This document shows, one piece after another, positions 13,893-53,665 of a stretch of DNA of 60,056 nt (position 1 is its first letter; every line of letters starts with the position of its first letter). The translations under genes were made by a program, and so were the position numbers. Under the pieces are notes generated by a model, which saw nothing but the letters and a program-made list of their open reading frames with translations, searched no databases and was not told where the DNA came from. This DNA is from Rhodoferax sp. (GTDB taxonomy: Bacteria; Pseudomonadota; Gammaproteobacteria; Burkholderiales; Burkholderiaceae_C), in assembly GCA_025358555.1 (NCBI GenBank), contig JANYJD010000036.1:1-60056 (forward strand), read 5' to 3'.

Positions 13893-13916
13893 TTTTGTCC
13901 TCTAAAACTCTTGCAA

Positions 13917-14030: not shown

Positions 14031-14082
14031 TTCACTCTCCTAAAACTCTAAAAATTGTCATTCAACGCGCCCTGAAGCCGCT

Positions 14083-15393: not shown

Positions 15394-15420
15394 GTGATCT
15401 TTCTTTACAGGCGATCAGGC

Positions 15421-15852: not shown

Positions 15853-15862
15853 CATCAACCTC

Positions 15863-16045: not shown

Positions 16046-16071
16046 TTTGAAGCTCCTGCCATTACTAGGAG

Positions 16072-16596: not shown

Positions 16597-16613
16597 TACT
16601 TATTCCGATCTGC

Positions 16614-16979: not shown

Positions 16980-16990
16980 TTAGCTGCCCC

Positions 16991-17524: not shown

Positions 17525-17548
17525 TTTTGATTTCTCCTCAATGTAGCT

Positions 17549-17944
17549 TTAAGCGACGTAGCACAGCACTTCGCCACCGACACCGGTAGCGCGCGCTTTG
17601 CGGTCAGTCATGACACCCTGTGGTGTCGTCACGATCGCCACGCCCAAGCCGTTTTGCACCTGGGGGATGGCACCCGTGCCACGGTAGACGCGCAGGCCGG
17701 GACGGCTGACACGCTCAATGCGCTCTATCACCGGGCGACCGGCGTAGTATTTGAGGGCGATTTCCAGCTCGGCCTTGCCGTCCTCTGTTTTCACCTGGAA
17801 GCCGTCAATGTAGCCTTCGTCCTTCAAGACTTGGGCAATGGCCACCTTCACTTTGGAAGAAGGCACAGACACAGTCGTTTTTGCAACCATCTGCGCATTG
17901 CGGATGCGCGTCAACAGGTCGGCGATGGGATCACTCATGCTCAT
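17549..17944 (-). CDS. rpsH: 30S ribosomal protein S8
   Basis: [17 protein letters not shown]...RPGLRVY.... Confidence 0.95.
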
Positions 17945-17962
17945 GTTTATATCTCCTGTCGC

Positions 17963-18268
17963 TTACCAGCTGGCCTTGACGATGCCTGGGATTTCTCCGG
18001 CAAAAGCCATTTCGCGAATCTTGGCGCGTGCCAGCCCAAAGTGCTGGAACGTGCCACGGGGGCGGCCGGTGATGGAACAGCGATTGCGCTGGCGTGTCGG
18101 GTTTGCATTGCGCGGCAGCTTTTGCAGCGCCAGGCGGGCCTGGGCGCGCTCTTCGTCGCTGCGCTTGGCGTCGTTTGCAATGCCTTTGTATTCCGCGTGT
18201 TTTTTCGCGTACTTGGCAACCAAATTGTCGCGCTTGAGTTCGCGCTGGATTAAAGCCATTTTTGCCAC
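17963..18268 (-). CDS. rpsN: 30S ribosomal protein S14
   Basis: [41 protein letters not shown]. The start was set to the GTG at 18268 (GAGG 6 nt upstream), giving a 101-aa protein that begins [10 protein letters not shown]. The track start at 18322 would add a non-homologous extension. Confidence 0.92.
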
Positions 18269-18276
18269 AGGTCGCC

Positions 18277-18816
18277 TCAGTTCTTGAACGGGAAACGGAA
18301 ACCAACAAGCAGCGCCTTGCACTCTTCGTCAGTCTTGGCCGTTGTGGTGATGCTGATATTGAGTCCGCGCAAGGCATCAACCTTGTCGTATTCGATTTCA
18401 GGGAAAATAATCTGCTCTTTAACGCCGATGTTGTAGTTGCCACGGCCATCAAAAGCGCGGCCGGAAATGCCACGGAAGTCACGGACCCGGGGCAGCGCCA
18501 CGGTCACAAAGCGGTCCAGAAATTCATACATCTGCACACCGCGAAGCGTGACCATGCAGCCGATAGCCTGGTCTTCACGGATTTTGAAGCCGGCAATTGC
18601 CTTCTTGGACTTGGTTACCACTGGCTTCTGGCCTGCAATCTTGGTCAGGTCGCCCACTGCGTTGTCCATGACTTTTTTGTCAGCTACTGCTTCGCTCACA
18701 CCCAGGTTGAGCGTGATCTTGGTCAGACGCGGAACCTGCATGGGCGAGGTGTAGCCAAATTTGGCCATCAGCTCAGGCGCCAGTTTTTCGCGGTAGTGTT
18801 GTTGTAAACGTGCCAT
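18277..18816 (-). CDS. rplE: 50S ribosomal protein L5
   Basis: [12 protein letters not shown]...KITLNLGV...[19 protein letters not shown]. Confidence 0.95.
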
Positions 18817-18827
18817 GATGAGTATCC

Positions 18828-19148
18828 TTAGGCGAACTTGATTTCTTCGCCGCTGGACTTGTAAACGCGAACGCGTTTGCCGTCACCCAGCAGCTTGATG
18901 CCAACGCGGTCAGCCTTGCCCGTTGCGGCATTGAAAATGGCCACGTTGGACTGGTGGATGGGCATGGTTTTTTCAACAATGCCGCCAACCGCGCCCTTGA
19001 GCGGATTGGGTTTGGTGTGTTTTTTCACCAGGTTGATGCCCTCGACCATCACATGGGAGTCATCTTTGCGCAGCGTAATCTTGCCGCGCTTGCCCTTGTC
19101 ACGCCCGGCCAGGACAATGACTTCGTCACCTTTGCGAATCTTGTTCAT
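18828..19148 (-). CDS. rplX: 50S ribosomal protein L24
   Basis: [22 protein letters not shown] (KOW motif). Confidence 0.95.
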
Positions 19149-19170
19149 CGCTCTTCCTTATTTATGACGG

Positions 19171-19539
19171 TCAGAGAACTTCAGGGGCCAAGGACACGAT
19201 CTTCATGAACTTCTCGGTGCGCAGTTCGCGCGTCACGGGTCCAAAGATGCGGGTGCCGATGGGCTCCAGCTTGGCGTTGAGCAACACGGCTGCGTTGCTG
19301 TCGAATTTGACCAGCGAGCCGTCGCTGCGTCGGATGCCCTTGGCGGTGCGGACCACCACGGCACTGTAGATTTCGCCTTTTTTGACGCGGCCACGGGGAG
19401 CAGCTTCTTTGATGCTCACCTTGATGACGTCGCCCACGCTTGCATACCGGCGCTTGGACCCACCCAGCACCTTGATGCAAAGGACGGATTTCGCGCCAGT
19501 ATTGTCGGCAACTTCCAATCGGGATTCAGTCTGGATCAT
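19171..19539 (-). CDS. rplN: 50S ribosomal protein L14
   Basis: [17 protein letters not shown]... The start was set to the ATG at 19539 (122 aa). It is the first gene of the spc operon. Confidence 0.95.
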
Positions 19540-19565
19540 TTTGTATATTCCCAACTTGCATCAAG

Positions 19566-19641
19566 AGCCCACAAGGGACGCCTGATCAGTCTTGGGCCCG
19601 TTAACCTTGATGCAAACCACTCACATCAAGGCGTTTGGGCA
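19566..19641 (-). promoter_or_regulatory. structured leader/spacer upstream of rplN with mutually exclusive hairpins
   Basis: There are three copies of one arm. TTGCATCAAG (19566-19575) and CATCAAGG (19634-19641) are each complementary to CCTTGATGCAA (19615-19625). The RNA can therefore form either an A:B hairpin or a B:C hairpin, but not both. Confidence 0.35.
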
Positions 19642-19714
19642 GAAACTTCGAATGGCCTTTTCAAGCCAAGCCTGCGATTATGCCAGAGATTTCTGGCCTG
19701 CGTCAAGCGCGATG

Positions 19715-42226: not shown

Positions 42227-42469
42227 GTCTGTTTGTAACAATACGAAATGGCGGCGTCAAGCGGCGCGGTCCTACACGGCAACGGCGTTGTCCTACAGCG
42301 GTGTGCACGGACTGGCATGGTTTTGGGGGCATTTTTCCATCGGGAAAGACTCTCTAAAAATCATCAATATGGAGGATGCGCAAATGGCGGCGGCATCGTA
42401 ATATCGAGGTGGAAGGCCGCCAATCACGCAAACATACGGCATCGGCTAAACGGCGGTAACGCGGCGGCA

Positions 42470-42566
42470 GATATGCGCAGTGCGGGTCGGTGGTTTGTTT
42501 TATATTGAATGACGCGATTCACTCAGTCCCTGCTTTCATGCCTTACTTTGGAGTCATCAAATGAAA
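42470..42566 (+). repeat. decayed copy of the DUF1800 3' end / DUF1501 start junction
   Basis: 42541-42566 (CCTTACTTTGGAGTCATCAAATGAAA) matches 44253-44278 (CCTTACTTTGGGGTCATCAAATGAAA) at 25 of 26 nt. Weaker colinear matches lie upstream (TGCGCAGT, GATTCAC, CCCTG). Confidence 0.7.
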
Positions 42567-44276
42567 TTGTGCATCCGGTATCGACCTATTGAGAAGCTTG
42601 CGTTGGCCGCCTCAGTGGCCCTGCTGGGCGCTTGCGGCGGGGGTCGCGGCGACGCGCCTGCTACAGCGGCTACCGCTGCAACATTCGCAACGGCCGTTGC
42701 AGCGGCTGAAGCATCGCCCTCGGCAGGCCAGGTCAAACCCGTCGCGGCGGTCAAAATGAGTTTGTATGCGGCGGCACGCGCGACTGATCAAGTGAGTTTT
42801 GGGGCTACGCCAGCGCTGGTTGCTGAACTTCAACAACAAGGCTTACCCGCGTGGATCGAGGGGCAATTTGCTCTGCCGGTGTCGCAGATTGTGCCCCCGT
42901 CGTGGGTGATTAATTACGACACCGATGACCCCGCTGCAGGGGCTCGAGCAATGGCTTACTACAGGCAAGAGTTTTGGCGACGCAATCTGTCGTCGACCGA
43001 CCAACTCAGGCAAAGGGTCGCTTGGTCAGTTTTTGAATTCATTCCCGTGGGCGATGGCAACACTTCGATTCGAATCGATCATTACAACCTTCTCCAGAGG
43101 TACGCGTTTGGAAACTATGGCGACTTTCTTCGTGAGCTTTCGGTCCATCCCTCTATGGGTTGGTATCTCAACAACAACATCAACCGCCCCACAACAACAC
43201 AATGCCCGCAATGCACGCCCAACGAAAATTATGCCCGTGAGTTGATGCAGTTGTTCACGCTGGGGGTTGTGCAACTCAACCTCGACGGGTCTATGGTGCG
43301 GGATGCACAGGGTAAGACTAAGGAAACCTATATTCAGAAAGACGTTGAGGAATTGGCGCGGGCGCTGACGGGCTGGCGCTTCGCGCCGAGCAATCCTCCA
43401 GTACCGTCATCGAATTCCACCAATTCGGGCTTCCTTATGGTGCCAGAAAGTCAGGCGTCGCAGCATGACAGTGGAGCCAAGAAAATCTTGGGAGCGCCGT
43501 TTGCTGCCGGAAAGGATGCTCCTCAAGACCTGGACGCTGTTATCACAGTGTTGATGCAGCACCCCAACGTTGCGCCCTTCGTCAGCTTGCGGCTGATCCA
43601 GCATCTTGTAACCAGTAATCCTACTCCGCAATACATTGCAAGGGTGGCCGCCGTCTTTCGCAACAATGGCCAGGGCGTTGCGGGTGACATGAAGGCCTTG
43701 ATTCGCGCTGTTCTGCTGGATGCGGAGGCACGGCGTGGGGACCTGCCGGGTGCAGATACTGCGTCTTTTGGCAAATTGCGCGAGCCAGTGCTCTGGTTAA
43801 CTGCGACTCAACGAGGCCTCGGTTGCAAAGAAATTCTGCGCTACGCCGATGGCAATACAGTGACGCCGAGCAATCAAAACCCTACCGCTCCGCCCAGCAT
43901 TTTCAGCTTTTACCAAGCAGGAGACCGTGCACCCGGCAGCAATTTGCTGGCCCCGGAGCAAAAGCTTTTGACGACCGATGAGCTAACGAATAGGCTTGGC
44001 ACGCTGACATACCTGTTGTTGGACCCCAACCGGAACATTACCAACACAACCCAATCAGGTTGTGATGTCGCCACCCTTGGACAGGCGTTTTCCAAGTCTC
44101 CCAAAGACCTGATCGATTTAATCAGCACCCGCTGGTTCCGGGGTGCCATGCCGCCCACGCTGCGCAGTAATTTGGCTGGCCTGGCTGTGTCTCAAACCTG
44201 GGATTCACCGGACAGGGCCGCTATGGTGCTGTTGCAATTTGCCCTGTCCACACCTTACTTTGGGGTCATCAAATGA
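42561..44276 (+). CDS. DUF1800-family lipoprotein
   Basis: Lipobox LLGAC. DUF1800 hallmarks: NENYARELMQLFTLG, DVEELARALTGW, SQHDSGAKKILG, LMQHPNVAPFVSLRLIQHLV. Some stretches are markedly AT-richer than the rest of the window. Confidence 0.8.
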   Translation: MKLCIRYRPIEKLALAASVALLGACGGGRGDAPATAATAATFATAVAAAEASPSAGQVKPVAAVKMSLYAAARATDQVSFGATPALVAELQQQGLPAWIEGQFALPVSQIVPPSWVINYDTDDPAAGARAMAYYRQEFWRRNLSSTDQLRQRVAWSVFEFIPVGDGNTSIRIDHYNLLQRYAFGNYGDFLRELSVHPSMGWYLNNNINRPTTTQCPQCTPNENYARELMQLFTLGVVQLNLDGSMVRDAQGKTKETYIQKDVEELARALTGWRFAPSNPPVPSSNSTNSGFLMVPESQASQHDSGAKKILGAPFAAGKDAPQDLDAVITVLMQHPNVAPFVSLRLIQHLVTSNPTPQYIARVAAVFRNNGQGVAGDMKALIRAVLLDAEARRGDLPGADTASFGKLREPVLWLTATQRGLGCKEILRYADGNTVTPSNQNPTAPPSIFSFYQAGDRAPGSNLLAPEQKLLTTDELTNRLGTLTYLLLDPNRNITNTTQSGCDVATLGQAFSKSPKDLIDLISTRWFRGAMPPTLRSNLAGLAVSQTWDSPDRAAMVLLQFALSTPYFGVIK

Positions 44277-45625
44277 AACGCCGCCTTTTTTTGAAATCCG
44301 GTGCACCTGTTGGCGTCGCGCTAGGTGCTGCGGGCCTTTTGGGGTCGTTGAGCTTGCCGGGCTCTGCCGCAACCGGCGACTACCGGGCCCTGGTGGTTGT
44401 GTTTTTGACGGGCGGCAACGACGGCAACAATACCCTTGTGCCGACAGACGGCGCGTACCTTGATTACAGCCGTGCCCGGCCTGACCTGGCGTTGGCCAAA
44501 GACAGCCTGGTGGCTTTGGCTGGCAGCAGCGCCGGACACACCTTTGGCGTGCACCCCGCCTTGGCGCCTGTGGCAGCGCTGTATAACCAGCAGCGCCTGG
44601 CCTGGATTGCCAATGCCGGGCCACTGGTAGTGCCTGCCACTGCCCAGCAAGTCATTGCCCATAGCGTTGAGTTGCCGCCTTATTTGCTGTCGCACAGCGA
44701 CCAGCAAAACATGACCCAAGGATGGATGGGTGACGCCGATGCCAGTGGCTGGGCTGGGCGTGCGCTGGAGCAGATGCCTGGCAACCTTAAAAATGCGTTG
44801 GGGGCTGTGACGTTTGACTCCAACCGTACCCTGGTGCTGGGCAAGCAGTCGCGCGTAGCCTTCATGAGCAATGGCGGCCCACGCTACTGGGGCAATGCGG
44901 ATCTGGCCCATCCCGAGCAATTTTGGGCCCAATCCCTCAACCGCATGGCTCAATGGCAATTTACCAACGCCTATGAAGCTGAATACGCACGCACTTTTGG
45001 CGGTGGCGTCGCAGAGTCCACCCTGTTTACCCAGGCGTTCCTGAAGGCTGGCACGCCGCAGGCGAACTTTGAAAGCGATCCGCTGGCGACCAGATTGAAA
45101 TCGCTGGCCTCAGTGTTGCCGGTGTTCAAGTCTTCCGGTTACAAGCGCCAGGTTTTTCTGATTAATTGGGGCAGCTTTGACACCCATACCGGGCAAAAGG
45201 GCAGCGGGGCGACCAGCCAGGACAGCCAGCTTAGCACTCTGGCCAAGGCGCTTGCGGCATTCGACCAGGCCAACCAGGCCGCCGGGTTGAACCTGGATGT
45301 CACCACCCTGGTGATGAGCGAATTTGGCCGCACCTTGCGCCCGGCTTCTGGCGGCGGCTCAGACCATGCCTGGGGCAGCCACTGGTTTGCCATGGGCGGT
45401 GCGGTGGCTGGCGGACAGGTGCTGGGGCAACTGCCCGCCCTGGTGCTGGGTGGGGCAGACGATGCGGACCCGCAACGCGGCGGGCGCTTTGTACCCACCA
45501 CATCGGTAGACCAGGTGGGGGCCAAGATGATGCAATGGATGGGGTTACCCGCAGCGTCGCAGCTGGATGTGTTTCCCAACCTGAAGAATTTTCCTCAAAA
45601 AACACTAAGCCTGTTAAGCGCTTAG
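44273..45625 (+). CDS. DUF1501-family protein with twin-arginine signal
   Basis: Tat motif KRRLFLK. DUF1501 hallmarks: VVVFLTGGNDGNNTLVP and GGGSDHAWGSHWFAMGGAVAGG. The start overlaps the DUF1800 stop (ATGA). Confidence 0.8.
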   Translation: MKRRLFLKSGAPVGVALGAAGLLGSLSLPGSAATGDYRALVVVFLTGGNDGNNTLVPTDGAYLDYSRARPDLALAKDSLVALAGSSAGHTFGVHPALAPVAALYNQQRLAWIANAGPLVVPATAQQVIAHSVELPPYLLSHSDQQNMTQGWMGDADASGWAGRALEQMPGNLKNALGAVTFDSNRTLVLGKQSRVAFMSNGGPRYWGNADLAHPEQFWAQSLNRMAQWQFTNAYEAEYARTFGGGVAESTLFTQAFLKAGTPQANFESDPLATRLKSLASVLPVFKSSGYKRQVFLINWGSFDTHTGQKGSGATSQDSQLSTLAKALAAFDQANQAAGLNLDVTTLVMSEFGRTLRPASGGGSDHAWGSHWFAMGGAVAGGQVLGQLPALVLGGADDADPQRGGRFVPTTSVDQVGAKMMQWMGLPAASQLDVFPNLKNFPQKTLSLLSA

Positions 45626-45662
45626 ACCTTCAAAAAGAAGCAAATAAAGAGGGGGCAAGACC

Positions 45663-48338
45663 ATGGACATTCTTGGTACAGAGCAGGCAGACGTTTACGA
45701 CCAGACCGCACAAGGTCCGGGTGAGGGGAATACGTATCGCGGTTTGGGTGGCAACGACACTATCCGCATGTACAACGGCACGGCGGTGCCAGGTGCCGGG
45801 GTTGACATCATTGAGCACCTCGTGTCCGCCGACACATGGCGCACACTGGAAGTGGCGTTTTGGGACTCGCCCGCCGGCGTGGTGGTGGACCTGGCTGCGG
45901 GTTACGCTGATGATGGATGGGGCTCACGTGATACTTTAGTTGGAATATTTAAAGGCGCGCATGGCAGTTTTCACGATGACCGCTTTTTGGGCGATGCAGG
46001 CAACAATACCTTCTGGCCCAATGGCGGCAAAGACACTATTGATGGCCGTGGCGGCATTGACACTGTGGGCTTGGGCTGGACAGCCGGAGATCCGACGGAC
46101 CTGAGCAACTACAACATTGCGGTCTCCATCGACGGCGCGTTGGCAACCATCACATCGAAAACCGACAAAAACCTTCGGTATGAACTCGCCAACGTTGAAC
46201 GCTTGAGTTTTTGGGACGGTACCGTCGGCCACGACTTTGACATTGCCGACTTCATGAGCCCCAAGGCCATGGCTGAGCAGGGATTGACTGGCGCGGCCAC
46301 CCAGCGATGGAATTCCGCTGCGGCCATGGGGACCCCTGTGGGCGTGAGCTTCAGTTTTGTAGAAAGCGCGCCAGCATCAGGCCCGGGCGCCACCGGTTTT
46401 CGAAGTTTCAATGCGACCGAGCGCCAAACAGTGCGTGACTTGCTCAACAGCACCAGCGCAGTGACCGGCCTGACCTTCACCGAAGTGGCTGAGGCAGGTG
46501 CCACCAATGGGCAAATTCGCTTTGGCGTCAGCGCCCAAAGTGCCACCAAAGGCGTGGCCTTCATGCCAGATGTGTCTGCCGCCAACCCCACGGCGGGTGA
46601 CATCTGGATTGACTCCGATTCAATGCTGGCGCTGTCCCCCGGCACAGAAGGCTACGCCGCGCTGCTGCACGAGCTGGGCCATGCTTTGGGCTTGCGCCAT
46701 CCGCGCAATGTGGATGCGGGCGATGCCTGGGCGCAGCAACTGCGCGCAGCGGATGACAAAACAAGTTTCAGCGTGATGTCGGGCACCGCATCAGTCGATG
46801 GCCTGTTTCGCGCCGACTGGGGCGTGCTCGATGTCGCCGCACTGCAGTATCTTTACGGCAGCAAGGCTGTCAATGGCGGTGATACCGTTTACCCAGTGGG
46901 TGGGGCTGACGCATTGGCGCAGCGCACCTTGATTGACGTCGGCGGCATTGACACGATTGACGCCACAGCGTCCCAAGTTGGCGTGTCAATTGACCTGGCC
47001 GCTGCGCATCTCAGCAGCGTGGGTTTGAGCCGTGACGGCCTGGCACCAGTTGAAAACCTGGGGATCGCCGTGGGCACGGTGATTGAAAACGCCATTGGCT
47101 CCAATTTGGATGATGTGCTGGTTGGCAATGCGCTAGCCAACGCGCTGTATGGCCGTGGCGGAAATGATTGGATCGATGGGGGTGCCGGTTTTGACATTGC
47201 CGTGTTTGCGGGCAAGCGGAGCGACTACTTTGTGAGCAGTGGTTTTGGCAAGGTATTTGTGGCCGCACGCGATGGCGTCAGTGGCTTTGACACCCTGCTC
47301 AATATCGAACGCCTTTCGTTTGACGATGGCGACGTCAATCTGGGCGCATCGGCCGTTGCAGCTGACATCAAGTTCACGACTGACAAGGGTGTCGCCGCAC
47401 AAGGAACCCTGCCGGACCCCAGTGACCAGTTGCGGACAGCCACGTCATACAGCAAGTCGGTTGAAGCCGTCCACGGCAGTGTGACCGTCAGCGCAACGGG
47501 CAGCTATGCCTACGTCCCCAATTCGGCCTACACCGGTGAAGACAGCTTTGGCTACCGTGTCAGTGATGGCAAAGGAGGCGCCAATGTGTACTGGGCGTAC
47601 ATCACGATAAACCAGTCCAACGAAGTGTCAAGCATTCCCGTGTCCTTGACCGGCACGGCGGGGGCCGACAACCTTTTAGGCGGCAATGGCGCAGATACGC
47701 TGAGCGGCGGCGCTGGCAACGACACACTCACCGGTTTGGGTGGAAATGATGCCATTGATGGCGGCACAGGCACTGACGTCGCTGTGTACAGCGGCAGCCG
47801 TCAGAACTATGTGCTGACAAAAACCGGCGGCGGCTTTACGGTGACTGACAACTCGGGGCTGGAAGGAACCGATACCCTGCAAAATGTGGAGCGCCTTAAG
47901 TTCTCTGACCGTGGCATTGCTCTGGACGTCGGCCCCGCGCAGTCGGCAGGAGAAACCCAACTGCTGCTGGGCGCGGTGCTGGGCAAAGACTTGCTGGCCA
48001 CCAAGAAGCCGCTGATCGGAACGGCCATTGACCTGTTTGACCAGGGGTACACCTTCCAGCAACTCTCCGGCGCCATCATGCGGCTGAACATTTGGGGCAT
48101 CCTGGCCAATGGGGGCCAGCCCAGTGCGACCAGCACGCAAATCGCAAACTACCTGCTGACAACGGTGAACAAAGCTGCGCCTGACGCGGCAACACTTGCC
48201 GCCGCTGTCACAGCCTTAAACACCGAGACCGGGCCAGCGCAAGGCAATTTTCTGTGGCATCTGGCGGAATCGGCTGCCAACCAGACCCAGGTCGGACTGG
48301 TTGGGCTGGCATTGACCGGGCTGGAGTTTGGCGGTTAA
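45663..48338 (+). CDS. RTX-repeat serralysin-like (M10-type metzincin) metalloprotease with cadherin/VCBS-like domain and conserved C-terminal module
   Basis: No signal peptide (MDILGTEQADVYDQ). Zinc site HELGHALGLRH and a possible Met-turn, FSVMSG. RTX nonapeptides GGNDWIDGGAGFD and GGNGADTLSGGAGNDTLTGLGGNDAIDGGTGTD. Ig-like segment GSYAYVPNSAYTGEDSFGYRVSDGKG. The NVERL/NIERL motif occurs three times. The terminal 156 aa are shared with the next two genes. Confidence 0.8.
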   Translation: MDILGTEQADVYDQTAQGPGEGNTYRGLGGNDTIRMYNGTAVPGAGVDIIEHLVSADTWRTLEVAFWDSPAGVVVDLAAGYADDGWGSRDTLVGIFKGAHGSFHDDRFLGDAGNNTFWPNGGKDTIDGRGGIDTVGLGWTAGDPTDLSNYNIAVSIDGALATITSKTDKNLRYELANVERLSFWDGTVGHDFDIADFMSPKAMAEQGLTGAATQRWNSAAAMGTPVGVSFSFVESAPASGPGATGFRSFNATERQTVRDLLNSTSAVTGLTFTEVAEAGATNGQIRFGVSAQSATKGVAFMPDVSAANPTAGDIWIDSDSMLALSPGTEGYAALLHELGHALGLRHPRNVDAGDAWAQQLRAADDKTSFSVMSGTASVDGLFRADWGVLDVAALQYLYGSKAVNGGDTVYPVGGADALAQRTLIDVGGIDTIDATASQVGVSIDLAAAHLSSVGLSRDGLAPVENLGIAVGTVIENAIGSNLDDVLVGNALANALYGRGGNDWIDGGAGFDIAVFAGKRSDYFVSSGFGKVFVAARDGVSGFDTLLNIERLSFDDGDVNLGASAVAADIKFTTDKGVAAQGTLPDPSDQLRTATSYSKSVEAVHGSVTVSATGSYAYVPNSAYTGEDSFGYRVSDGKGGANVYWAYITINQSNEVSSIPVSLTGTAGADNLLGGNGADTLSGGAGNDTLTGLGGNDAIDGGTGTDVAVYSGSRQNYVLTKTGGGFTVTDNSGLEGTDTLQNVERLKFSDRGIALDVGPAQSAGETQLLLGAVLGKDLLATKKPLIGTAIDLFDQGYTFQQLSGAIMRLNIWGILANGGQPSATSTQIANYLLTTVNKAAPDAATLAAAVTALNTETGPAQGNFLWHLAESAANQTQVGLVGLALTGLEFGG

Positions 48339-48375
48339 GCGAATGCCTTCAAGGTAGGGGAGAATCTGGCTGACC

Positions 48376-50097
48376 ATGGCAATCTTCACCCCGTACACGC
48401 CTACGAGCCTCATTGCAAAAGCGCTGTTCAACTTTGATGCCTTCGGCAGTGGCAATTTCAAGTTGGCTGGCACGGTGAACGTGTCCGTGTCGGACAGCTT
48501 TACGTACGCCCAATACCTCAACGCGTTCCCGGCAATTTCAGCGGATGTTTATACCTCGTTGAGTTCGGGCAATGGCAATTGGACGGCCGCACAACTTGCG
48601 AATGTCAACCTGATTGCGGCCACGTATTCAAATTTCATCAATTTGAAATTCGCATCAGTGGCCAATGATTCCGGCCTGTCGCCTGCCAATGTGGGATTCG
48701 CATCCGACATCAACATCAGCCTGATTTACCGCCGGGATGCGCCATTTTCAGGCGAAAGCGCGTTGAACGGCGATGCGGATTTTGGCTATGCCGGAGGTCG
48801 CGGTGACATCGTTCTCAATGTCAATGGCTTCGGCTCGCGTGGATTGAGCAACGATATCAGCCTGGATTCTTCAACGTTTGGTTTTCATGCGTTGATGCAT
48901 GAAATGGGGCATTCGCTTGGCTTGTCGCATCCGCACAGTTCCATTGCGCGCGGCGTCACCACCCTGACCGCGGATTTCGCCGCCATCACGGGGACAGGTT
49001 TTGCGCAGCTCGGCTTTCGCATCAACAGCGCGCTGGACATGAACAAGGAATATTTTTCCATCATGTCTTACGACGACCAGACGCCAGCCGGCGCGCCAGA
49101 TACCTTTGCGCAAACGCCCATGATCCTGGACGTGATCGCGCTGCAAAGCGCCTACGGCGAAGGCGGCGGAACCTCAGGCGCTGGCAATGATGTCATCACG
49201 CCAGGCGGCGATGGGGGCGTCAACTCCTACCGCACTTACTTTGACACCGGCGGCACGGACACCATCAATCTGGCCAACTATGCCCAGGGCGCCTACTTGA
49301 ACATGGGCACAATCATCGCGGGGGCAGCGCACTGGGTCGGAGTTGCGATGAGCGCCGCAGATTCAAACGCCATGATCAACCTGGGCAAGGACCCCGCCAG
49401 CCTTCGATGGTTTTACGGCGAGTACGAAAATGCGGTGGGCAGTGCGGCAGCCGATGTGATTGTTGGCAATGCCCTGAATAATTCGATTGATGGGCAAGGT
49501 GGCAACGACACCATCGACGGCGGCGCGGGCATTGACACCGCGTTGTACGCAGGCCCGCGCTTGAACTACACACTGGCCAAAACCAGCAACGGCTTCTCCG
49601 TGGCTGACATCACCGGCGCGGCGGGCATTGACACGTTGCAAAACGTGGAGCGGCTCAAGTTCTCCAACGGCGCCATTGCCCTGGATGTGGGCGCGAGAGA
49701 GTCTGGCGGTGAAGCCCAACTGTTGCTGGGTGCAGTGTTGGGCAAGGACTTGCTGGCGACCAAGAAACTTCTGATCGGGACTGCGATTGACCTGTTCGAC
49801 CAAGGTTTCACCCTGCAACAGCTTTCAGGCGCCATCATGCGGCTCGACATTTGGGGTGCCCTGGCCAATGGCGGACAGGCCGCTGCCACTAATGCACAGA
49901 TTGCTGGTTACTTGCTTGCAACGGTGAACAAAGCCACGCCAGACGCCACGTCACTGGCGGTTGCCGTTACTGCACTGGACACCGAGACGGGCGCCGCGCA
50001 GGGCAGCTTCCTGTGGCACTTGGCTGAATCCGCAACGAATCAGACGCAAGTGGGTTTGGTCGGGCTGGCGACAACGGGGCTGGAGTTTGCCGCCTGA
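48376..50097 (+). CDS. RTX-repeat serralysin-like metalloprotease with the same C-terminal module
   Basis: No signal peptide. Zinc site HEMGHSLGLSH, Met-turn FSIMSYDD, RTX GQGGNDTIDGGAGID. Over the last 156 aa it is 125/156 identical to the upstream gene (hand count). Confidence 0.8.
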   Translation: MAIFTPYTPTSLIAKALFNFDAFGSGNFKLAGTVNVSVSDSFTYAQYLNAFPAISADVYTSLSSGNGNWTAAQLANVNLIAATYSNFINLKFASVANDSGLSPANVGFASDINISLIYRRDAPFSGESALNGDADFGYAGGRGDIVLNVNGFGSRGLSNDISLDSSTFGFHALMHEMGHSLGLSHPHSSIARGVTTLTADFAAITGTGFAQLGFRINSALDMNKEYFSIMSYDDQTPAGAPDTFAQTPMILDVIALQSAYGEGGGTSGAGNDVITPGGDGGVNSYRTYFDTGGTDTINLANYAQGAYLNMGTIIAGAAHWVGVAMSAADSNAMINLGKDPASLRWFYGEYENAVGSAAADVIVGNALNNSIDGQGGNDTIDGGAGIDTALYAGPRLNYTLAKTSNGFSVADITGAAGIDTLQNVERLKFSNGAIALDVGARESGGEAQLLLGAVLGKDLLATKKLLIGTAIDLFDQGFTLQQLSGAIMRLDIWGALANGGQAAATNAQIAGYLLATVNKATPDATSLAVAVTALDTETGAAQGSFLWHLAESATNQTQVGLVGLATTGLEFAA

Positions 50098-50105
50098 GTG
50101 CTGCA

Positions 50106-52496
50106 TCAAAAAACTGGCGGGCCGAGATCAATGCCCGTGGCGGCCAGGCCGACAAGCCCCACTTGGATTTGATTGTTTGACGATTCAGCCAAATGCCACA
50201 GGAAGTTGCCTTGGGCTATGCCACCTTCCGAATCCAGCGATGCAACTGCGGTAGCCAACGCAGCGGCGTTTGGCGCAGTCTTGTTCACCGTTGTCAGCAG
50301 GTAGTTTGCAATCTGGGCGTTGGTAGCGGTCTCGGCACCGCCATTGGCCAACAATCCCCATATTGGCAAACGCATCAGCGCCCCGGCCAAAATCTGGGTT
50401 GAGTAGAGGCCCGAGTCATAAAGATCGGTCACGGTGCCGATCAACGGTTTTTTCGATTGGAGCAGGGTGTTGCCCAAAACAGCGCCCAGCAAAAGCACTG
50501 AGTTGCCTGCCGATTGCCCCAAAGCCGTGTCAAACGCCACTCTGTCATCCGAGAACTGCAGGCGCTCGATATTTGACAGCGTGTCAACGCCGTCCTGGCT
50601 AGTCGTGCCGCTCACCGTGAATCCGGTGGCTGTGGCGGCTACTGTGTAAGCTGCACGGGCTCCGGTAAAAATAGCCGTGTCAATGCCGGCGCCCCCATCA
50701 ATCGTGTCGTTGCCCCGGTTGCCACGCAGCAGATTGTTGGCGGCGTTGCCGATCAGGACGTCGTCACCCAAACCGCCGATGGCATTTTCAATGACCGAAC
50801 CGATGCCAATGGTCAACTCCCCCGTGCCTGCGTTGGATTTGTGCCCGGCTACCAAGTCAAGACGCACAGCGGTGGCGGCGGCTGCGGCGTTCAAGGTATC
50901 AATGCCGCCGGTGTCGTTCAGCGTCGGGTTGGCGGCCGCAAACTCGTTGGTCAAAATATACTGCGAGTCCGCCGTGACAGGCGACCCCCAGGCCCGTACC
51001 GTGAGGCTGTTGAACGTCGCAATTTGCCCTGAGACTTTGTCAGTGACCTTCAGGGTCCAGGTCCCATCGCTGATTTCGCCCAGGAACGCGGTCGAGCCGA
51101 TGGTGAAAGTGGATGGCCAGCCTGGCTCGGCTGTGGTCAGGTCCGGCGCGCCTTGAACCAGGTTGCGCGTCAGCGGTTGGTCGAACAAGGTTACGGTGGT
51201 TCCGCCGGGTGAGGTGATGGTGGCATTTAGCTGGCTGGGGCTTGCGGCAGTGAGGTTCAGGTCAAACTCCATGCGCTCGATGCGCACGTTATGGGTCACG
51301 ATGGCTGTGGCGGTGAACCCCGCTGCACTGTTGTCCGGGATCGCCCCGCTGGGAGCCGTTGAGACGCCTTCTGCACTTTGCCAGTTGGCGACGGTGCCGG
51401 CAGGCCGGAACCACGATTCTGCCAAGCGAACCGCTGCCGAAACGTCCATCAGGCCATAACCAAAATCGCGGGAGAAATGCATGCCGCCCAAGTTCCAGTC
51501 GCTGCCGTGGTTTTGCGTCCAGCTGGTGTTGGCGACATCTACCTTGCGCGCGGTGAGCGCCAGAATGGTGGAGACATCCCGAAAACCCAACTTGGGGTTA
51601 GCCTGCAGCATCAGTGCGGCAGCGCCTCCTACCATGGGGCCAGAGTAGGACGTGCCCTGGTTTTGATACGCATAGTCACCGTCAGCGCCCGCAGTCGTGT
51701 TGTAGCCGGCGGCGCCCTGTACGTCGGCCGAAGGAATCCCGAAGCCCTGGTTGTCCGATTGGGCTCCGCTGGAAACGCCGCCCGGCGCGGTCACCAATAG
51801 GCTGGCGCCGGCAGTGGAATACGCTGTAGCGGCCCCCGTCTCTGTCACAGCGCCGACGGCGATGGTGAGCCTGCTGCCGGTGAAGTTGGACAAGGATGTG
51901 TCGGCGTGGTTGGCACGCTCGTTGCCGCCCGAGACCTCGATCACCATGCCCAAGCCGCCCCGGGCTTCGCTGGCGGCGCGTACCAGTGCCGCACCCCAAT
52001 CGCGATCAGCCTGAGAGCCCGAAGCGCCGAAGTTCTCGGCAAACGCCGGGTCTTGTCCCCACGAGTTAACGCTCACGCCGGCACCTGCCGCCAGGTTGGC
52101 GAGAAAGAGGTTGGCGGAGTTGGCCCCAGCCGCGATGGCCAAGCCCGGCACAATTTTGGCGTCGTAAGCGACCCCAACACCGCCTATGCCGTCGTTGCCC
52201 GCCATGCCGACGATGGAGCCGACCACCGTACCGTGGGAATTACCCGCGCCGACGAACCCCTGTCCAGTGGTGCCGCGCACCGCGTCAAAGGCCAGATTGG
52301 GCAGCAGGTTGGCGACCAGCGAGGGTTGGGTAAGGTCAATGCCGTCATCGTTGACGGCGACCACGACGCCTTTGCCAGTGTAGGTATCCCACGCCGAGAG
52401 CACATTGATGTCAAGTCGGGAAGTGCCACCGCGCTGCCCGGTGTTGACCAGGTACCACTCAGACGCAAAAAGCGGGTCATTGAACGTTTTAGCCAT
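50106..52496 (-). CDS. subtilisin-family (S8) serine protease with proprotein-convertase P-domain, RTX repeats and the same C-terminal module
   Basis: AAGGAG Shine-Dalgarno sequence before the ATG; no signal peptide. Catalytic triad contexts VAVNDDGID, GNSHGTVVGS and GTSYSGPMVGGAAAL. P-domain-like segment (RIERMEFDLNLT...ITSPGGTTVTLF...GTWTLKVTD). RTX: GNRGNDTIDGGAGID. The tail aligns to the tails of the two metalloproteases. Confidence 0.8.
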   Translation of the reverse strand: MAKTFNDPLFASEWYLVNTGQRGGTSRLDINVLSAWDTYTGKGVVVAVNDDGIDLTQPSLVANLLPNLAFDAVRGTTGQGFVGAGNSHGTVVGSIVGMAGNDGIGGVGVAYDAKIVPGLAIAAGANSANLFLANLAAGAGVSVNSWGQDPAFAENFGASGSQADRDWGAALVRAASEARGGLGMVIEVSGGNERANHADTSLSNFTGSRLTIAVGAVTETGAATAYSTAGASLLVTAPGGVSSGAQSDNQGFGIPSADVQGAAGYNTTAGADGDYAYQNQGTSYSGPMVGGAAALMLQANPKLGFRDVSTILALTARKVDVANTSWTQNHGSDWNLGGMHFSRDFGYGLMDVSAAVRLAESWFRPAGTVANWQSAEGVSTAPSGAIPDNSAAGFTATAIVTHNVRIERMEFDLNLTAASPSQLNATITSPGGTTVTLFDQPLTRNLVQGAPDLTTAEPGWPSTFTIGSTAFLGEISDGTWTLKVTDKVSGQIATFNSLTVRAWGSPVTADSQYILTNEFAAANPTLNDTGGIDTLNAAAAATAVRLDLVAGHKSNAGTGELTIGIGSVIENAIGGLGDDVLIGNAANNLLRGNRGNDTIDGGAGIDTAIFTGARAAYTVAATATGFTVSGTTSQDGVDTLSNIERLQFSDDRVAFDTALGQSAGNSVLLLGAVLGNTLLQSKKPLIGTVTDLYDSGLYSTQILAGALMRLPIWGLLANGGAETATNAQIANYLLTTVNKTAPNAAALATAVASLDSEGGIAQGNFLWHLAESSNNQIQVGLVGLAATGIDLGPPVF

Positions 52497-52610
52497 TTGG
52501 AACTCCTTTAAGTATTGCTACTGCTAACACCCTCCGTTTGAATGAGATGTTTGTGGGATCTCAAACAGTGATCGGATAGGCCGAGTATTCAATCGCATGG
52601 TCAGCCAAGT

Positions 52611-52670
52611 CCTTAAAAAAAGCCTAAAACTTATTAAATCTTCCTAAAAATTATGAAATTTCCTGAAACC
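52611..52670. promoter_or_regulatory. AT-rich divergent promoter region with phased CCT(T/A/G)AAA repeats
   Basis: CCTTAAAAAA (52611), CCTAAAAC (52623), TCCTAAAAA (52642) and TCCTGAAAC (52661), spaced 12, 20 and 19 nt apart, lie between the S8 protease gene (-) and the lipoprotein gene (+). Confidence 0.35.
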
Positions 52671-52720
52671 TGTTGAAATAAACGGCTACATCCCATCAAA
52701 ACACCCAGATCACAAAAGCC

Positions 52721-53617
52721 ATGAAGAAACTGCTGATCATCCTGCTGTCAGTCGCTTGCCTTGCGGCTTGCGGCGGCGGCTCTTCGTCAAGCATTCCCGT
52801 GAGCCCCGTGCCGCCGGTTGTTGCACGGTTGGTGGGTGAAATATTTTCATCACCGTCAGAGTTGGCCACCTCGGAGCTCAAGATCAATGCGGGATACGCC
52901 GGCAACCTGCCAACGTCGCGCGCCATACAGGCGTCAGGCAAGACGAACCTTCTTGACCTGCTGTTCATGCACGGCATCACCGATTCACTGGGCAATCTTC
53001 GCAGCGCGCTCGCCCCCGATGCTGAACAAAAACTGATTCAGTACGCCAGCGACAACAAGGACTTGCTGGTTCCCGGCATACGGGTGCTGATCACCGACGA
53101 GGTGTTTTGGACGCCCTCGGATCCTGGCGACAGCGTGGCATCTCTGGAGCGGCAACTCGTCGTGCTGAAAGCGGCTATCGCATTGGTGCGAAAGCACATT
53201 CCCCAGTCGTCCATTGGAATTACCGTCACACCCTATGCTGCGCAGGGGCACCCGAACACACTGGCCTATTCGCTCAAAGCGGTAGCCCTGGTCGATTGGG
53301 TTGGCACCGACCCCTACTGGCTTGGCGACCTATCCAGCATCCAGTATTTGCATAGCTGGTCACGCACGTTCAACAGCATGGCCAAGCAGGCCAACCCCAA
53401 GGTAGAGACGTGGTTCATTGCCCAAGCCTTCAAATTTGTCGATTGGGATCAGCTCACGTTCAACAGCTTTGTTGCAGAGCAGCTCGGTTATTCAGACCAA
53501 TACGACCACATTCTTTTCTTCGGCTGGCAGTACGTGTCTGAAATTGACAGCAGCACTGCGGGCAAGTTCTTCCCCGCAGAGTCCAAGGCGCTCTACAAGA
53601 AATACTTGAAGCCTTGA
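52721..53617 (+). CDS. lipoprotein of unknown function
   Basis: Signal peptide with lipobox (LSVACLAAC) followed by a GGGSSSS linker. I cannot assign the 298-aa body to a family. Confidence 0.6.
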   Translation: MKKLLIILLSVACLAACGGGSSSSIPVSPVPPVVARLVGEIFSSPSELATSELKINAGYAGNLPTSRAIQASGKTNLLDLLFMHGITDSLGNLRSALAPDAEQKLIQYASDNKDLLVPGIRVLITDEVFWTPSDPGDSVASLERQLVVLKAAIALVRKHIPQSSIGITVTPYAAQGHPNTLAYSLKAVALVDWVGTDPYWLGDLSSIQYLHSWSRTFNSMAKQANPKVETWFIAQAFKFVDWDQLTFNSFVAEQLGYSDQYDHILFFGWQYVSEIDSSTAGKFFPAESKALYKKYLKP

Positions 53618-53665
53618 CATTCCGCCATCATGCGGTGAATGACGTGAAGTCTCTCCATGCCGGGC

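What the first reader, a model, noticed from the sequence alone, without database searches (positions are those of the whole stretch)
42242..53665. Accessory-looking block: DUF1800/DUF1501 pair, three leaderless RTX proteases and an orphan lipoprotein
Six genes of accessory character sit between housekeeping cfa and icmF. They are a lipoprotein DUF1800; a Tat-exported DUF1501, translationally coupled to it by an ATGA overlap; two serralysin-like metzincins; a kexin-like S8 subtilase; and an unclassifiable lipoprotein behind an AT-rich divergent promoter. Parts of the block are much AT-richer than the rest of the window. By hand count, 43021-43080 is 28/60 GC and 43081-43140 is 27/60 GC, against 43/60 for 2041-2100 in ndvB. 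All three proteases lack N-terminal signal peptides and carry RTX repeats, the signature of type I secretion substrates. Yet no ABC, MFP or TolC gene, no protease inhibitor and no mobility gene lies in or next to the block. The DUF1800/DUF1501 pair has no established function that I know of, and I am not aware that its linkage to a protease battery has been described. The block could be a co-regulated extracellular or periplasmic proteolysis and nutrient-scavenging module. That functional link is inference only.
Basis: partly seen in the sequence, partly recalled or inferred. Interest (0 to 1): 0.75.

Follow-up and report, generated by a model that had tools for sequence, protein, structure and literature searches.

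The report
DUF1800–DUF1501–RTX protease operon plus tail-sharing proteases
The block holds a conserved three-gene operon, in which two widespread proteins of unknown function are followed by a secreted calcium-binding zinc protease, plus two further proteases that carry the same undescribed C-terminal tail, which gives these unknown families their first testable partner.

Summary
I confirmed the lipoboxes, the Tat motif, the ATGA overlap, the zinc motifs, the S8 triad with P-domain, the RTX repeats and the missing signal peptides. No T1SS, inhibitor or mobility gene lies anywhere in the 60 kb. The composition argument is weak: block GC is 0.585 against 0.597 for the window.

The block is a mosaic, not one module.
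1. DUF1800→DUF1501→M10a is a conserved unit. An M10a ortholog directly follows DUF1501 in 5 of 5 Burkholderiales contexts chosen by DUF1501 alone. It also does so in 9 of 9 metagenome contigs found through the protease tail. DUF pairs at about 35% identity (Vibrio, Agarilytica, Sphingomonas) lack the protease. In Duganella the trio runs on into Trx–DUF4266–DUF3570–ApbE and a small RTX protein.
2. M10b, S8 and the lipoprotein are separable additions.
3. All three proteases end in the same ~200-aa module: RTX plus an undescribed 140-aa helical domain. That domain sits at the C-terminus, almost always the extreme end, of 1,242 protein clusters with varied extracellular cargo. Some M10a orthologs carry DUF4214 in its place.

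Best reading: the proteases are exported by an unlinked T1SS and are probably retained on the cell surface, and the DUF pair acts in the same process as M10a. The function is untested.

The parts
42242..42560 (.). Spacer between divergent cfa and DUF1800. It contains the synteny breakpoint (~42280) and the upstream copy of a 26-nt repeat (42541-42566).
   Evidence: DNA homology with relatives L006 and L003 ends at window 42279-42282. The 26-nt repeat is 25/26 identical to 44253-44278. Spacer GC is 0.536.
42561..44276 (+). DUF1800 lipoprotein, first gene of the conserved trio.
   Evidence: PF08811 E 8e-80. Lipobox LLGAC. Orthologs at 52-59% identity precede DUF1501 in L174, L176 and L177, and at 40-43% in the metagenome loci.
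44273..45625 (+). DUF1501, Tat-exported protein with an alkaline-phosphatase-superfamily fold, second gene of the trio.
   Evidence: PF07394. KRRLFLK motif and ATGA overlap. Invariant D50, S140-H141, D303-x-H305 and D364-H365. AF2 model pLDDT 75.6; the strongest Foldseek PDB hits (E 1e-4 to 1e-2) are alkaline-phosphatase-superfamily enzymes.
45663..48338 (+). M10a, an RTX zinc metalloprotease and third gene of the trio. Domain order: N-terminal ~210-aa domain, M10 catalytic domain, RTX, Big_9/cadherin insert, RTX, CTD.
   Evidence: Pfam and NCBIfam hits. HELGHALGLRH motif. Orthologs at 37-62% identity, aligned from residues 1-3, follow DUF1501 in 14 contexts.
47916..48335 (+). CTD of M10a, an undescribed ~140-aa helical C-terminal domain. 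The full shared module, RTX plus CTD, starts at about 47640.
   Evidence: Alignment of the three tails. No Pfam family. 1,242 cluster representatives match. AF2 pLDDT 86.
48376..50097 (+). M10b, a second metzincin with a single clear RTX block and the CTD (49675-50094). It lies 37 bp after M10a on the same strand.
   Evidence: Pfam Astacin, M10 and RTX hits. HEMGHSLGLSH and SIMSY motifs. Orthologs at 88-92% identity in L003 and L089 sit in different neighbourhoods. It is absent after M10a orthologs in L174, L176, L177 and L179.
50106..52496 (-). S8 subtilase with a P-domain, RTX and the CTD (50109-50540). It converges on M10b, with stop codons 8 bp apart.
   Evidence: PF00082, PF01483 and PF08548. 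Triad motifs DDGI, HGTV and GTSYSGP. Orthologs at 63-81% identity occur in L123, L128, L138 and L142.
52497..52720 (.). AT-rich spacer between divergent S8 and the lipoprotein gene.
   Evidence: 38.8% GC. CCT[A/G]AAA occurs at 52623, 52643 and 52662.
52721..53617 (+). Conserved lipoprotein of unknown function. It is a neighbour, not part of the system.
   Evidence: Lipobox LAAC. No Pfam, NCBIfam or PDB hit. Family of at least 146 clusters. A homolog context has no protease. The L089 copy carries a 230-bp deletion.

Best explanation
The block is a mosaic of three kinds of gene.

(A) A conserved three-gene operon specific to Burkholderiales. It consists of a DUF1800 lipoprotein (probably sorted to the outer membrane), a Tat-exported DUF1501 with an alkaline-phosphatase-superfamily fold, and M10a, an RTX zinc metalloprotease.

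(B) Two further proteases, M10b (a metzincin) and S8 (kexin-like, with a P-domain). They are evolutionarily separable from (A). They end in the same ~200-aa module as M10a: an RTX beta-roll, a conserved 'NVERLxFxD' segment, and an undescribed ~140-aa helical domain that I call the CTD.

(C) An unrelated conserved lipoprotein.

Shown here: the gene identities, the conserved trio, the separability of the other genes, the shared tail, and the tail's wide distribution on leaderless proteins with extracellular-type cargo.

Inferred:
- The three proteases leave the cell through a T1SS encoded elsewhere, using their C-terminal end, and fold with calcium outside.
- The CTD then keeps them on the producer's surface, as proposed for the RTX-DUF4214 protein Psh of Pseudomonas putida.
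- DUF1800/DUF1501 form a periplasmic or outer-membrane phospho- or sulfo-ester hydrolase that works in the same process as M10a. The most likely process is breakdown of extracellular or surface polymers for nutrient scavenging.
For: Trio.
- In contexts chosen by DUF1501 identity only, an M10a ortholog follows DUF1501 in 5 of 5. These are L173 (74%), Caenimonas L174/175 (67%), Undibacterium L176 (67%), Duganella L177 (64%) and MAG L179/180 (63%).
- The orthologs are 45-62% identical to M10a from residues 1-3. All four complete ones (L174, L176, L177, L179) align from residues 1-3; HEIGHALGLRH was checked in three of them (L174, L176, L177).
- In contigs found via the CTD, 9 of 9 M10a orthologs with upstream sequence are preceded by DUF1800-DUF1501 at gaps of about 10 bp. 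Contig GC spans 0.49-0.65.
- Flanking genes differ in each context (cfa, ParA, WaaA, chitinases, dnaE, TctC).
- In Duganella the trio continues, with overlapping or abutting reading frames, into Redoxin-DUF4266-DUF3570-ApbE, followed after a 48-bp gap by a small RTX protein. The same two modules are adjacent in L154, L156, L164 and L003.

Shared tail.
- The three tails are 58-81% identical.
- 1,242 50%-identity cluster representatives match the CTD profile, almost always at the extreme C-terminus. Protein lengths run from 120 to 2128 aa.
- Of the first 60 N-termini inspected, only P0128 looked like a leader peptide.
- Cargo domains in 88 members are RTX, Ig-like, M10/M12, FG-GAP, GH113, S8 and Calx-beta.
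- In Duganella the protease and the small RTX protein share a DUF4214-type tail (57% identity over 201 aa), so the tail type changes in concert within a system.

Export and retention precedent. Psh (RTX + DUF4214) needs an AprD-type T1SS and gives no cross-protection to neighbouring cells (bioRxiv 10.64898/2026.09.02.748959).

DUF1501 fold.

Scavenging-type neighbours: TonB-dependent receptors (for L147; for L177), a 5'-nucleotidase and chitinases.
Against: - No T1SS gene is in the window. None is in the 76 CTD loci, 515 kb in total. None is in the other contexts read, so the export route is inferred from family knowledge only.
- A 140-aa, strongly conserved folded domain is unlike classical short, poorly conserved T1SS signals.
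- CTD-DUF4214 homology is unproven: hhalign probability 11.5%, and Foldseek E is 0.05 to a phycobilisome-linker domain.
- The DUF pair exists without any protease at ~35% identity and next to chitin synthase genes (PMC5122149). The pair therefore does not need the protease.
- A close relative has lost the DUF pair at this site and its M10a has decayed, while M10b and S8 stay intact.
- Small RTX relatives carry an ApbE flavinylation motif. That fits poorly with one-step T1SS export if ApbE acts in the periplasm.
- There are no expression, localisation or activity data.
Confidence: 0.55

Rival explanations
1. One reading: all six genes form one co-regulated proteolysis and nutrient-scavenging module.
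For: DUF1800, DUF1501, M10a and M10b lie on one strand with gaps of 37 bp or less, and no terminator-like site was found at the junctions. All three proteases share one tail. M10b-S8-lipoprotein-icmF stays together in relative L089.
Against: S8 is convergent and the lipoprotein has its own AT-rich spacer. The genes occur separately: L089 lacks the DUF pair, L003 lacks the DUF pair and S8, the lipoprotein homolog in L178 is alone, and M10a orthologs elsewhere are not followed by M10b or S8.
Confidence: 0.1
2. The block is a recently acquired genomic island, and the gene adjacency is a by-product of transfer.
For: None of 80 related cfa loci carries any block gene, while the other side of cfa is syntenic. 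Homology with relatives breaks at ~42280. GC3 is slightly low, and DUF1800 has the lowest GC3 in the window.
Against: There is no integrase, transposase, flanking tRNA or terminal repeat. Block GC equals the local background. DUF1501 is 67% identical to the Caenimonas ortholog and cfa is 73% identical to Caenimonas terrae, a divergence pattern that fits family-level vertical descent with rearrangement. The proteases-lipoprotein-icmF segment is syntenic in a relative.
Confidence: 0.15
3. The CTD is only a family-specific T1SS recognition or folding domain. The proteases are released free into the medium, and the DUF pair is merely co-inherited with M10a without functional coupling.
For: The CTD is almost always C-terminal, usually at the very end, and follows RTX repeats, as T1SS signals do. 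The DUF pair functions without a protease in other taxa.
Against: The adjacency persists from 37% to 62% protein identity, across two families, a GC range of 0.49-0.65 and different flanks, with gaps of about 10-75 bp. Tail types are exchanged in concert between the protease and the small RTX protein of the same locus. That suggests a shared binding partner rather than a generic signal.
Confidence: 0.2
4. The trio belongs to a cell-surface redox or envelope-remodelling system. In this view DUF1501 resembles phosphoethanolamine or glycerol-phosphate transferases such as MCR-1 and LtaS and modifies an envelope glycolipid. RTX proteins carrying the CTD then dock on that glycolipid, alongside the flavinylated DUF3570 module.
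For: Foldseek hits include LtaP/LtaS, MCR-1 and YejM. The trio is fused or adjacent to Trx-DUF4266-DUF3570-ApbE plus a small RTX protein in L177, L154, L156, L164 and L003. Psh is proposed to bind O-antigen. LPS-core genes (a GT9 heptosyltransferase and a WaaA-type Kdo transferase) lie upstream in Caenimonas.
Against: TM-scores are low (0.25-0.45), and sulfatases score as well as the transferases. DUF1501 is a soluble Tat substrate without the membrane domain that LtaS and MCR-1 have. The redox module is not in this window. There is no direct evidence.
Confidence: 0.15

Closest known systems
Serralysin-family RTX metalloproteases (AprA, PrtA/serralysin, ZapA; Caulobacter SapA)
   Same: HExxHxxGxxH zinc site, Met-turn, C-terminal RTX beta-roll (Peptidase_M10_C) and no N-terminal signal peptide. 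The best NCBIfam hits are SapA and Zn_serralysin.
   Different: Scores are far below the family cut-offs: 217 against 1200 bits for SapA, and 156 or 52 against 500 bits for Zn_serralysin. There is no adjacent T1SS or inhibitor gene. M10a has an extra ~210-aa N-terminal domain and a Big_9/cadherin insert. All three proteases carry a 140-aa helical CTD. M10a lies in an operon with DUF1800/DUF1501.
Psh of Pseudomonas putida KT2440 (RTX + DUF4214; bioRxiv 10.64898/2026.09.02.748959)
   Same: A leaderless RTX region followed by a helix-rich C-terminal domain. Export depends on a T1SS, and the protein gives no cross-protection to neighbouring cells. According to that preprint, DUF4214 also occurs on peptidases and Ig-like cargo. 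M10a orthologs in Duganella, Undibacterium and L179 carry DUF4214 where the window's M10a has the CTD.
   Different: Pfam DUF4214 does not recognise the window's CTD, and profile comparison is inconclusive. The cargo here is proteases. No T1SS or O-antigen genes are nearby, and there is no evidence of phage shielding.
DUF1800-DUF1501 two-gene operon (Gonçalves et al. 2016, PMC5122149)
   Same: Same two Pfam families in the same order, with a Tat motif on DUF1501 and translational coupling. The function is unknown.
   Different: Here, and across the Burkholderiales sampled, a third gene follows: an RTX metalloprotease. In that paper the pair travels with chitin synthase. In Vibrio, Agarilytica and Sphingomonas plasmids the pair stands alone.
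Kexin/proprotein-convertase-like S8 subtilases with a P-domain
   Same: Peptidase_S8 with D/H/S motifs, followed by a P_proprotein domain.
   Different: No signal peptide or recognisable prodomain. The C-terminal RTX + CTD module suggests type I export.
ApbE-DUF3570-thioredoxin-DUF4266 flavinylation cluster (Méheust et al. 2021, PMC8238504)
   Same: In relatives this cluster lies next to, or in one gene run with, the trio and a small RTX protein that has the same tail.
   Different: It is not present in this window, and that paper does not mention RTX proteins or the DUF1800/DUF1501 pair in its main text. A search of its supplements found neither DUF, but the stored file was truncated.

Membership tests
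Serralysin subfamily (M10B) metalloprotease | HExxHxxGxxH zinc motif and Met-turn (SxMSY) | tested here: met
   M10a has HELGHALGLRH and SVMSG (no Tyr). M10b has HEMGHSLGLSH and SIMSY.
Serralysin subfamily (M10B) metalloprotease | Score above the curated family cut-off (NCBIfam Zn_serralysin 500 bits; Pfam Peptidase_M10 24 bits) | tested here: not met
   Zn_serralysin scores 156 bits for M10a and 52 bits for M10b. Peptidase_M10 scores 30.8 bits for M10a (passes) and 17 bits for M10b (fails). M10b's best Pfam hit is Astacin at 25.5 bits.
Serralysin subfamily (M10B) metalloprotease | Encoded with its own T1SS (ABC, MFP, OMF) and a periplasmic inhibitor | tested here: not met
   None in the 60-kb window.
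Type I secretion substrate (RTX protein) | GGxGxDxUx nonapeptide repeats and no N-terminal signal peptide | tested here: met
   HemolysinCabind hits in all three proteases. N-termini are hydrophilic.
Type I secretion substrate (RTX protein) | Export depends on an ABC/MFP/TolC system through a C-terminal signal | not testable with these tools
   No T1SS gene is in the window or in the 76 CTD loci. The rest of the genome is not available.
S8 subtilase, kexin-like | Asp/His/Ser triad motifs plus a P-domain | tested here: met
   DDGI at 50, HGTV at 88, GTSYSGP at 281. PF00082 E 2e-27 and PF01483 E 1e-10.
DUF1800/DUF1501 operon | Both Pfam families above cut-off, DUF1800 first, on the same strand and coupled | tested here: met
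   269 and 92.7 bits. 4-nt ATGA overlap. Start-stop overlap or close coupling in the orthologous loci.
DUF1800/DUF1501 operon | Twin-arginine signal on DUF1501 | tested here: met
   MKRRLFLK. R3 and R4 are invariant in 31 homologs.
Alkaline-phosphatase superfamily (for DUF1501) | Core fold with metal-binding Asp, Ser/His and Asp-His motifs | tested here: inconclusive
   The strongest Foldseek hits (E 1e-4 to 1e-2) are superfamily members, but with TM-scores of only 0.25-0.45. Invariant D50, S140-H141, D303-x-H305 and D364-H365. No sequence-level PDB hit. Model coordinates could not be inspected.
DUF4214 / phycobilisome-linker-like domain (for the CTD) | Match to Pfam PF13946 | tested here: not met
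   No hit at E ≤ 1.
DUF4214 / phycobilisome-linker-like domain (for the CTD) | Remote profile or fold similarity | tested here: inconclusive
   hhalign against four DUF4214 tails gives probability 11.5%, E 0.0026, over 103 in-register columns. Foldseek hits 3nph (E 0.05), 3osj and 2ky4 (E 0.3).
Mobile genomic island | Integrase or transposase, tRNA or repeat boundaries, deviant composition | tested here: not met
   No mobility gene. No flanking tRNA. No terminal repeats. Block GC 0.585 against 0.597 for the window.

The most novel reading that the evidence does not exclude
In Burkholderiales, five components form one cell-surface system: DUF1800/DUF1501, the M10a-type RTX metalloprotease, the flavinylated DUF3570/Trx/DUF4266/ApbE redox module, and a small RTX protein that itself carries an ApbE flavinylation motif (D-x-x-S-G-A-S). 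An interchangeable C-terminal module (the new CTD, or DUF4214) docks the exported RTX proteins onto a common surface receptor. Further cargo, such as M10b and S8 in this window and hundreds of other proteins, has been recruited to that receptor by acquiring the same tail.
Probability: 0.3. Interest if true: 0.8.

Novelty: new variant of a known kind. Interest (0 to 1): 0.6.

Why it matters
DUF1800 and DUF1501 are large, widespread families. The DUF1501 search alone returned 3,601 proteins at E ≤ 1e-30, and no function is reported in the searchable literature: 6 papers mention DUF1800 and 12 mention DUF1501, and none of those I read reports a function. A conserved operon partner with a known activity, a zinc protease, gives a concrete genetic and biochemical handle. 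So does the fusion with a flavinylation redox module.

Separately, the CTD is an unnamed domain that ends at least 1,242 protein clusters with varied extracellular cargo. Orthologous proteases carry DUF4214 in its place. If the CTD is a surface-retention or sorting tag for type I substrates, it would define a new class of cell-surface display in environmental betaproteobacteria. It would also improve annotation of many 'hypothetical RTX proteins'.

Tried and rejected
- Genomic island or recent transfer. No integrase, flanking tRNA or terminal repeats, and GC equals the background. I rejected this as the main explanation.
- T1SS search. Pfam on every long ORF of the window and Walker A / LSGGQ motif screens on 442 ORFs from 76 CTD loci found none. 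The only two ABC hits lack a T1SS-type membrane domain: a fused double ATPase and a single importer-type ATPase.
- Naming the CTD, the lipoprotein and the two DUFs. Pfam, NCBIfam and PDB sequence and profile searches gave nothing. Foldseek on the RTX+CTD model was dominated by the beta-roll.
- CTD compared with DUF4214 by hhalign. Negative with one sequence and weak with four.
- Promoter and terminator scan. Counts did not exceed shuffled controls, so it was uninformative.
- Rfam. No RNA element in the block.
- A Pho-box or other regulator site in 42242-42560. I looked by eye only and claim nothing.
- The supplements of the eLife flavinylation paper had no DUF1501 or DUF1800 entries, but the stored file was truncated.
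- The 18-sequence CTD alignment was too diverse for the metagenome scan, so I used a 7-sequence alignment instead.
- The idea that the lipoprotein is GH18-like came from one UniRef name. Pfam scans of 34 family members did not support it.

Full report
**Observation.** ORF listing and Pfam/NCBIfam scans confirm the six genes at the stated coordinates.
- DUF1800 (42561-44276) has a lipobox.
- DUF1501 (44273-45625) has a KRRLFLK Tat motif and overlaps the DUF1800 stop codon as ATGA.
- M10a (45663-48338) and M10b (48376-50097) are metzincins with HExxHxxGxxH motifs and Met-turns.
- The S8 gene (50106-52496, minus strand) encodes a subtilase with D/H/S motifs and a P-domain.
- The 298-aa lipoprotein (52721-53617) matches no family.

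All three proteases carry RTX repeats and have hydrophilic N-termini. Annotating the rest of the window gave the following. The sequence comes from a Comamonadaceae bacterium, since the best cfa match is a Comamonadaceae MAG at 89%.
- ndvB
- a ribosomal-protein/rpoA/secY cluster
- glpDK
- Liv-type ABC importers
- TRAP and TctC transporters
- cfa
- icmF

No T1SS component, protease inhibitor or mobility gene is present, and the only tRNA lies at 10.6 kb.

Block GC is 0.585 against 0.597 for the window. ndvB (0.657) is the outlier. GC3 is about 1 SD low, and only DUF1800 is distinctly low. The S8-lipoprotein spacer really is AT-rich at 38.8% GC.

**Synteny.** I scanned species-representative genomes with cfa and recovered 80 Comamonadaceae loci with 10-kb flanks. 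The side of cfa away from the block (DUF1840, TctC, paaK, liv genes) is syntenic in many of them. None carries any block gene or icmF on the other side. DNA homology with the two closest relatives ends at window ~42280. So cfa sits at a rearrangement breakpoint, and there is no conserved 'cfa-icmF junction' to be empty.

Exact copies of the block exist in three public read-set assemblies. A MAG at ~88% nt identity (GCA_043758475.1) has FMN-reductase | 5'-truncated and internally deleted M10a | M10b | S8 | lipoprotein with a 230-bp deletion | icmF. It has no DUF pair at that site, and its cfa is on another contig. A metagenome contig with cfa at 88% has cfa | 93-aa tail fragment | 447-aa protein with a different N-terminal domain but an M10a-type tail | M10b | ApbE-DUF3570-DUF4266-Redoxin | small RTX protein. 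The six genes are therefore separable.

**The shared tail.** The three proteases share a C-terminal ~200 aa at 58-81% identity. It consists of RTX repeats, a conserved 'DTLxNVERLxFsD' segment and a ~140-aa helical domain, the CTD. Neither Pfam nor NCBIfam has a model for the CTD.

A word-indexed search found mainly ~225-230-aa proteins that consist of RTX plus CTD only. A full profile search of 1.84 billion cluster representatives found 1,242 matches at E ≤ 1e-3 and 170 at E ≤ 1e-30. The match is almost always at the extreme C-terminus, and protein lengths run from 120 to 2128 aa. Of the first 60 N-termini inspected, only P0128 looked like a leader peptide. Pfam scans of 88 members show cargo typical of extracellular proteins: RTX in 51, Big_5 in 10, M10_C in 9, reprolysin-like in 6, FG-GAP in 5, plus GH113, Calx-beta, S8 with P-domain, cadherin, CAP and C-type lectin.

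The AF2 model of RTX+CTD is confident (pLDDT 86): a beta-roll followed by eight helices. PDB Foldseek hits come from the beta-roll. The helical part resembles phycobilisome-linker domains only weakly, at E 0.05-0.3.

**The trio.** I scanned metagenome contigs with the CTD and obtained 76 loci. Clustering their ORFs showed that the most recurrent neighbours are DUF1501 and DUF1800 homologs at 40-43% identity to the window's. Nine loci, with GC from 0.49 to 0.65, carry DUF1800→DUF1501→a ~697-aa M10a ortholog. These orthologs are 36-40% identical over M10a residues 2-558 and also carry the CTD. The gaps are about 10 bp. A tenth ortholog sits at a contig end.

To remove the selection bias I searched with DUF1501 alone. 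That gave 3,601 proteins at E ≤ 1e-30, and the best 120 are 61-94% identical (the named ones are Burkholderiales). I read five contexts chosen by identity and contig length.
- L173 (74%)
- Caenimonas sp. SL110 (67%)
- Undibacterium cyanobacteriorum (67%)
- Duganella sp. BuS-21 (64%)
- a betaproteobacterial MAG (63%)

In all five the next gene is an M10a ortholog, 45-62% identical from residues 1-3. All four complete orthologs align from residues 1-3, and the three checked (L174, L176, L177) have HEIGHALGLRH. Flanking genes differ in every case.

By contrast, pairs at 34-35% identity on Vibrio, Agarilytica and Sphingomonas plasmids have no protease next to them. The literature describes the pair next to chitin synthase genes (PMC5122149). 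The pair is thus an autonomous unit that gained an RTX metalloprotease as a third gene in a Burkholderiales subfamily. I found no paper describing this.

**Wider system.** In Duganella the trio continues, with overlapping or abutting reading frames, into Redoxin-DUF4266-DUF3570-ApbE, followed after a 48-bp gap by a 315-aa RTX protein. The protease and the small RTX protein there share a DUF4214-type tail, 57% identical over 201 aa. In L154 and L156/L164 the same redox module plus a small RTX-CTD protein is transcribed divergently from the trio. In L003 it abuts M10b. In 13 loci overall a small RTX protein accompanies the redox module. This redox module is the flavinylation cluster of Méheust et al. 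2021, in which DUF3570 is an ApbE substrate (PMC8238504).

M10a orthologs carry different tails by lineage.
- The CTD in the window and in L147-L166.
- A weak CTD in Caenimonas (E 1e-6).
- DUF4214 in Duganella, Undibacterium and L179.

Profile comparison of the CTD with DUF4214 tails is in register but weak (probability 11.5%).

**Mechanism.** From established knowledge of RTX proteins, leaderless proteins with nonapeptide repeats are exported by T1SS through an uncleaved C-terminal signal. No T1SS gene is linked here or in 515 kb of CTD loci, so the exporter must be encoded elsewhere.

A 2026 preprint shows that Psh, an RTX + DUF4214 protein of P. putida, needs an AprD-type T1SS. It does not cross-protect neighbouring cells, and the authors propose that it binds O-antigen. 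The CTD and DUF4214 replace one another in orthologs and change in concert between the RTX proteins of one locus. I therefore infer that the CTD is a secretion-plus-retention module that docks its cargo on the producer's surface.

DUF1501 modelled at pLDDT 75.6. Its strongest PDB fold hits (E 1e-4 to 1e-2) are alkaline-phosphatase-superfamily enzymes (sulfatases, LtaS/LtaP, MCR-1, NPP, alkaline phosphatases), though TM-scores are low. Invariant Asp/Ser-His/Asp-x-His/Asp-His motifs fit a metal site of that superfamily.

Neighbours in several contexts include TonB-dependent receptors, a 5'-nucleotidase and chitinases. My best guess is a surface and periplasmic degradative system: protease outside, ester hydrolase in the periplasm. 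A rival is a surface-remodelling or redox role tied to the DUF3570 module. Neither was tested.

**The lipoprotein.** It belongs to a family of at least 146 clusters of ~300-aa lipoproteins in the betaproteobacterial and Burkholderiales records that carry a name. The family has no Pfam or PDB relative. One homolog sits among unrelated genes. I treat it as a neighbour, not a component.

**Verdict.** The new elements are the conserved DUF1800-DUF1501-RTX protease operon, its recurrent association with a flavinylation module, and an unnamed, widespread C-terminal domain shared by the three proteases.

Noticed in passing
L001-L005, L105, L111, L143, L153, L154, L156, L162, L164, L177 (e.g. L003:10001-10693; L177:14775-15722); not in the window: The small RTX proteins encoded beside Redoxin-DUF4266-DUF3570-ApbE all carry D-x-x-S-G-A-S at residues ~55-83. 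This matches the ApbE flavinylation motif [S/T]GA[S/T]. A second small subfamily ('MPSDFELPPSPGG') and the window's three proteases lack it. These small proteins are candidate flavinylated RTX proteins.
   Followed up: partly
L001:12538-13428, L003:12754-13662, L177:13824-14726, L156:1381-2289: The ApbE genes of these clusters, as called, start directly with the mature domain and show no signal peptide, whereas DUF3570 and DUF4266 have one. This raises the question of where flavinylation of a leaderless RTX protein would take place.
   Followed up: no
window 42541-42566 and 44253-44278: A 26-nt direct repeat, 25/26 identical, brackets the DUF1800 gene. The upstream copy encodes 'PYFGVIK*' followed by ATGAAA, which is a copy of the DUF1800-end/DUF1501-start junction placed at the DUF1800 start. 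It is absent upstream of DUF1800 in nine other loci. It is probably a recombination scar.
   Followed up: partly
window 52497-52720: The S8-lipoprotein spacer is 38.8% GC and has CCT[A/G]AAA at 52623, 52643 and 52662, about 20 nt apart. These could be binding sites for a regulator.
   Followed up: no
L097:3-12472; L093:3996-9080; L003:15517-17148: CTD proteins occur in tandem arrays. L097 has four in a row (1029, 741, 839 and 1427 aa). L093 has a calpain-like Peptidase_C2 + RTX + Big_12 + CTD protein followed by an RTX protease. L003 has a 93-aa tail fragment and a 447-aa protein with an unrelated N-domain fused to an M10a-type tail. The M10a and M10b tails are 72% identical at the DNA level (47739-48038 against 49498-49797), which would allow cassette-like exchange.
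   Followed up: partly
L089:8927-10423 and 14935-15468 (MAG GCA_043758475.1): In a relative at ~88% nt identity, M10a is split into 329-aa and 140-aa ORFs. It lacks its first ~150 codons and window 47362-48104. The lipoprotein gene lacks window 53245-53474. M10b (92%), S8 (95%) and icmF (99%) are intact.
   Followed up: yes
window 10000-19700: This lower-GC stretch (0.51-0.58) has few long ORFs. It is the rpoA/rpsD/secY ribosomal-protein cluster with tRNA-Met at 10562-10638, not foreign DNA.
   Followed up: yes
L174:3912-12749 (Caenimonas sp. SL110): In this genome the trio lies directly downstream of LPS-core genes (a GT9 heptosyltransferase and a WaaA-type Kdo transferase) and is followed by a convergent TolC-family gene. 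This may be coincidence.
   Followed up: no
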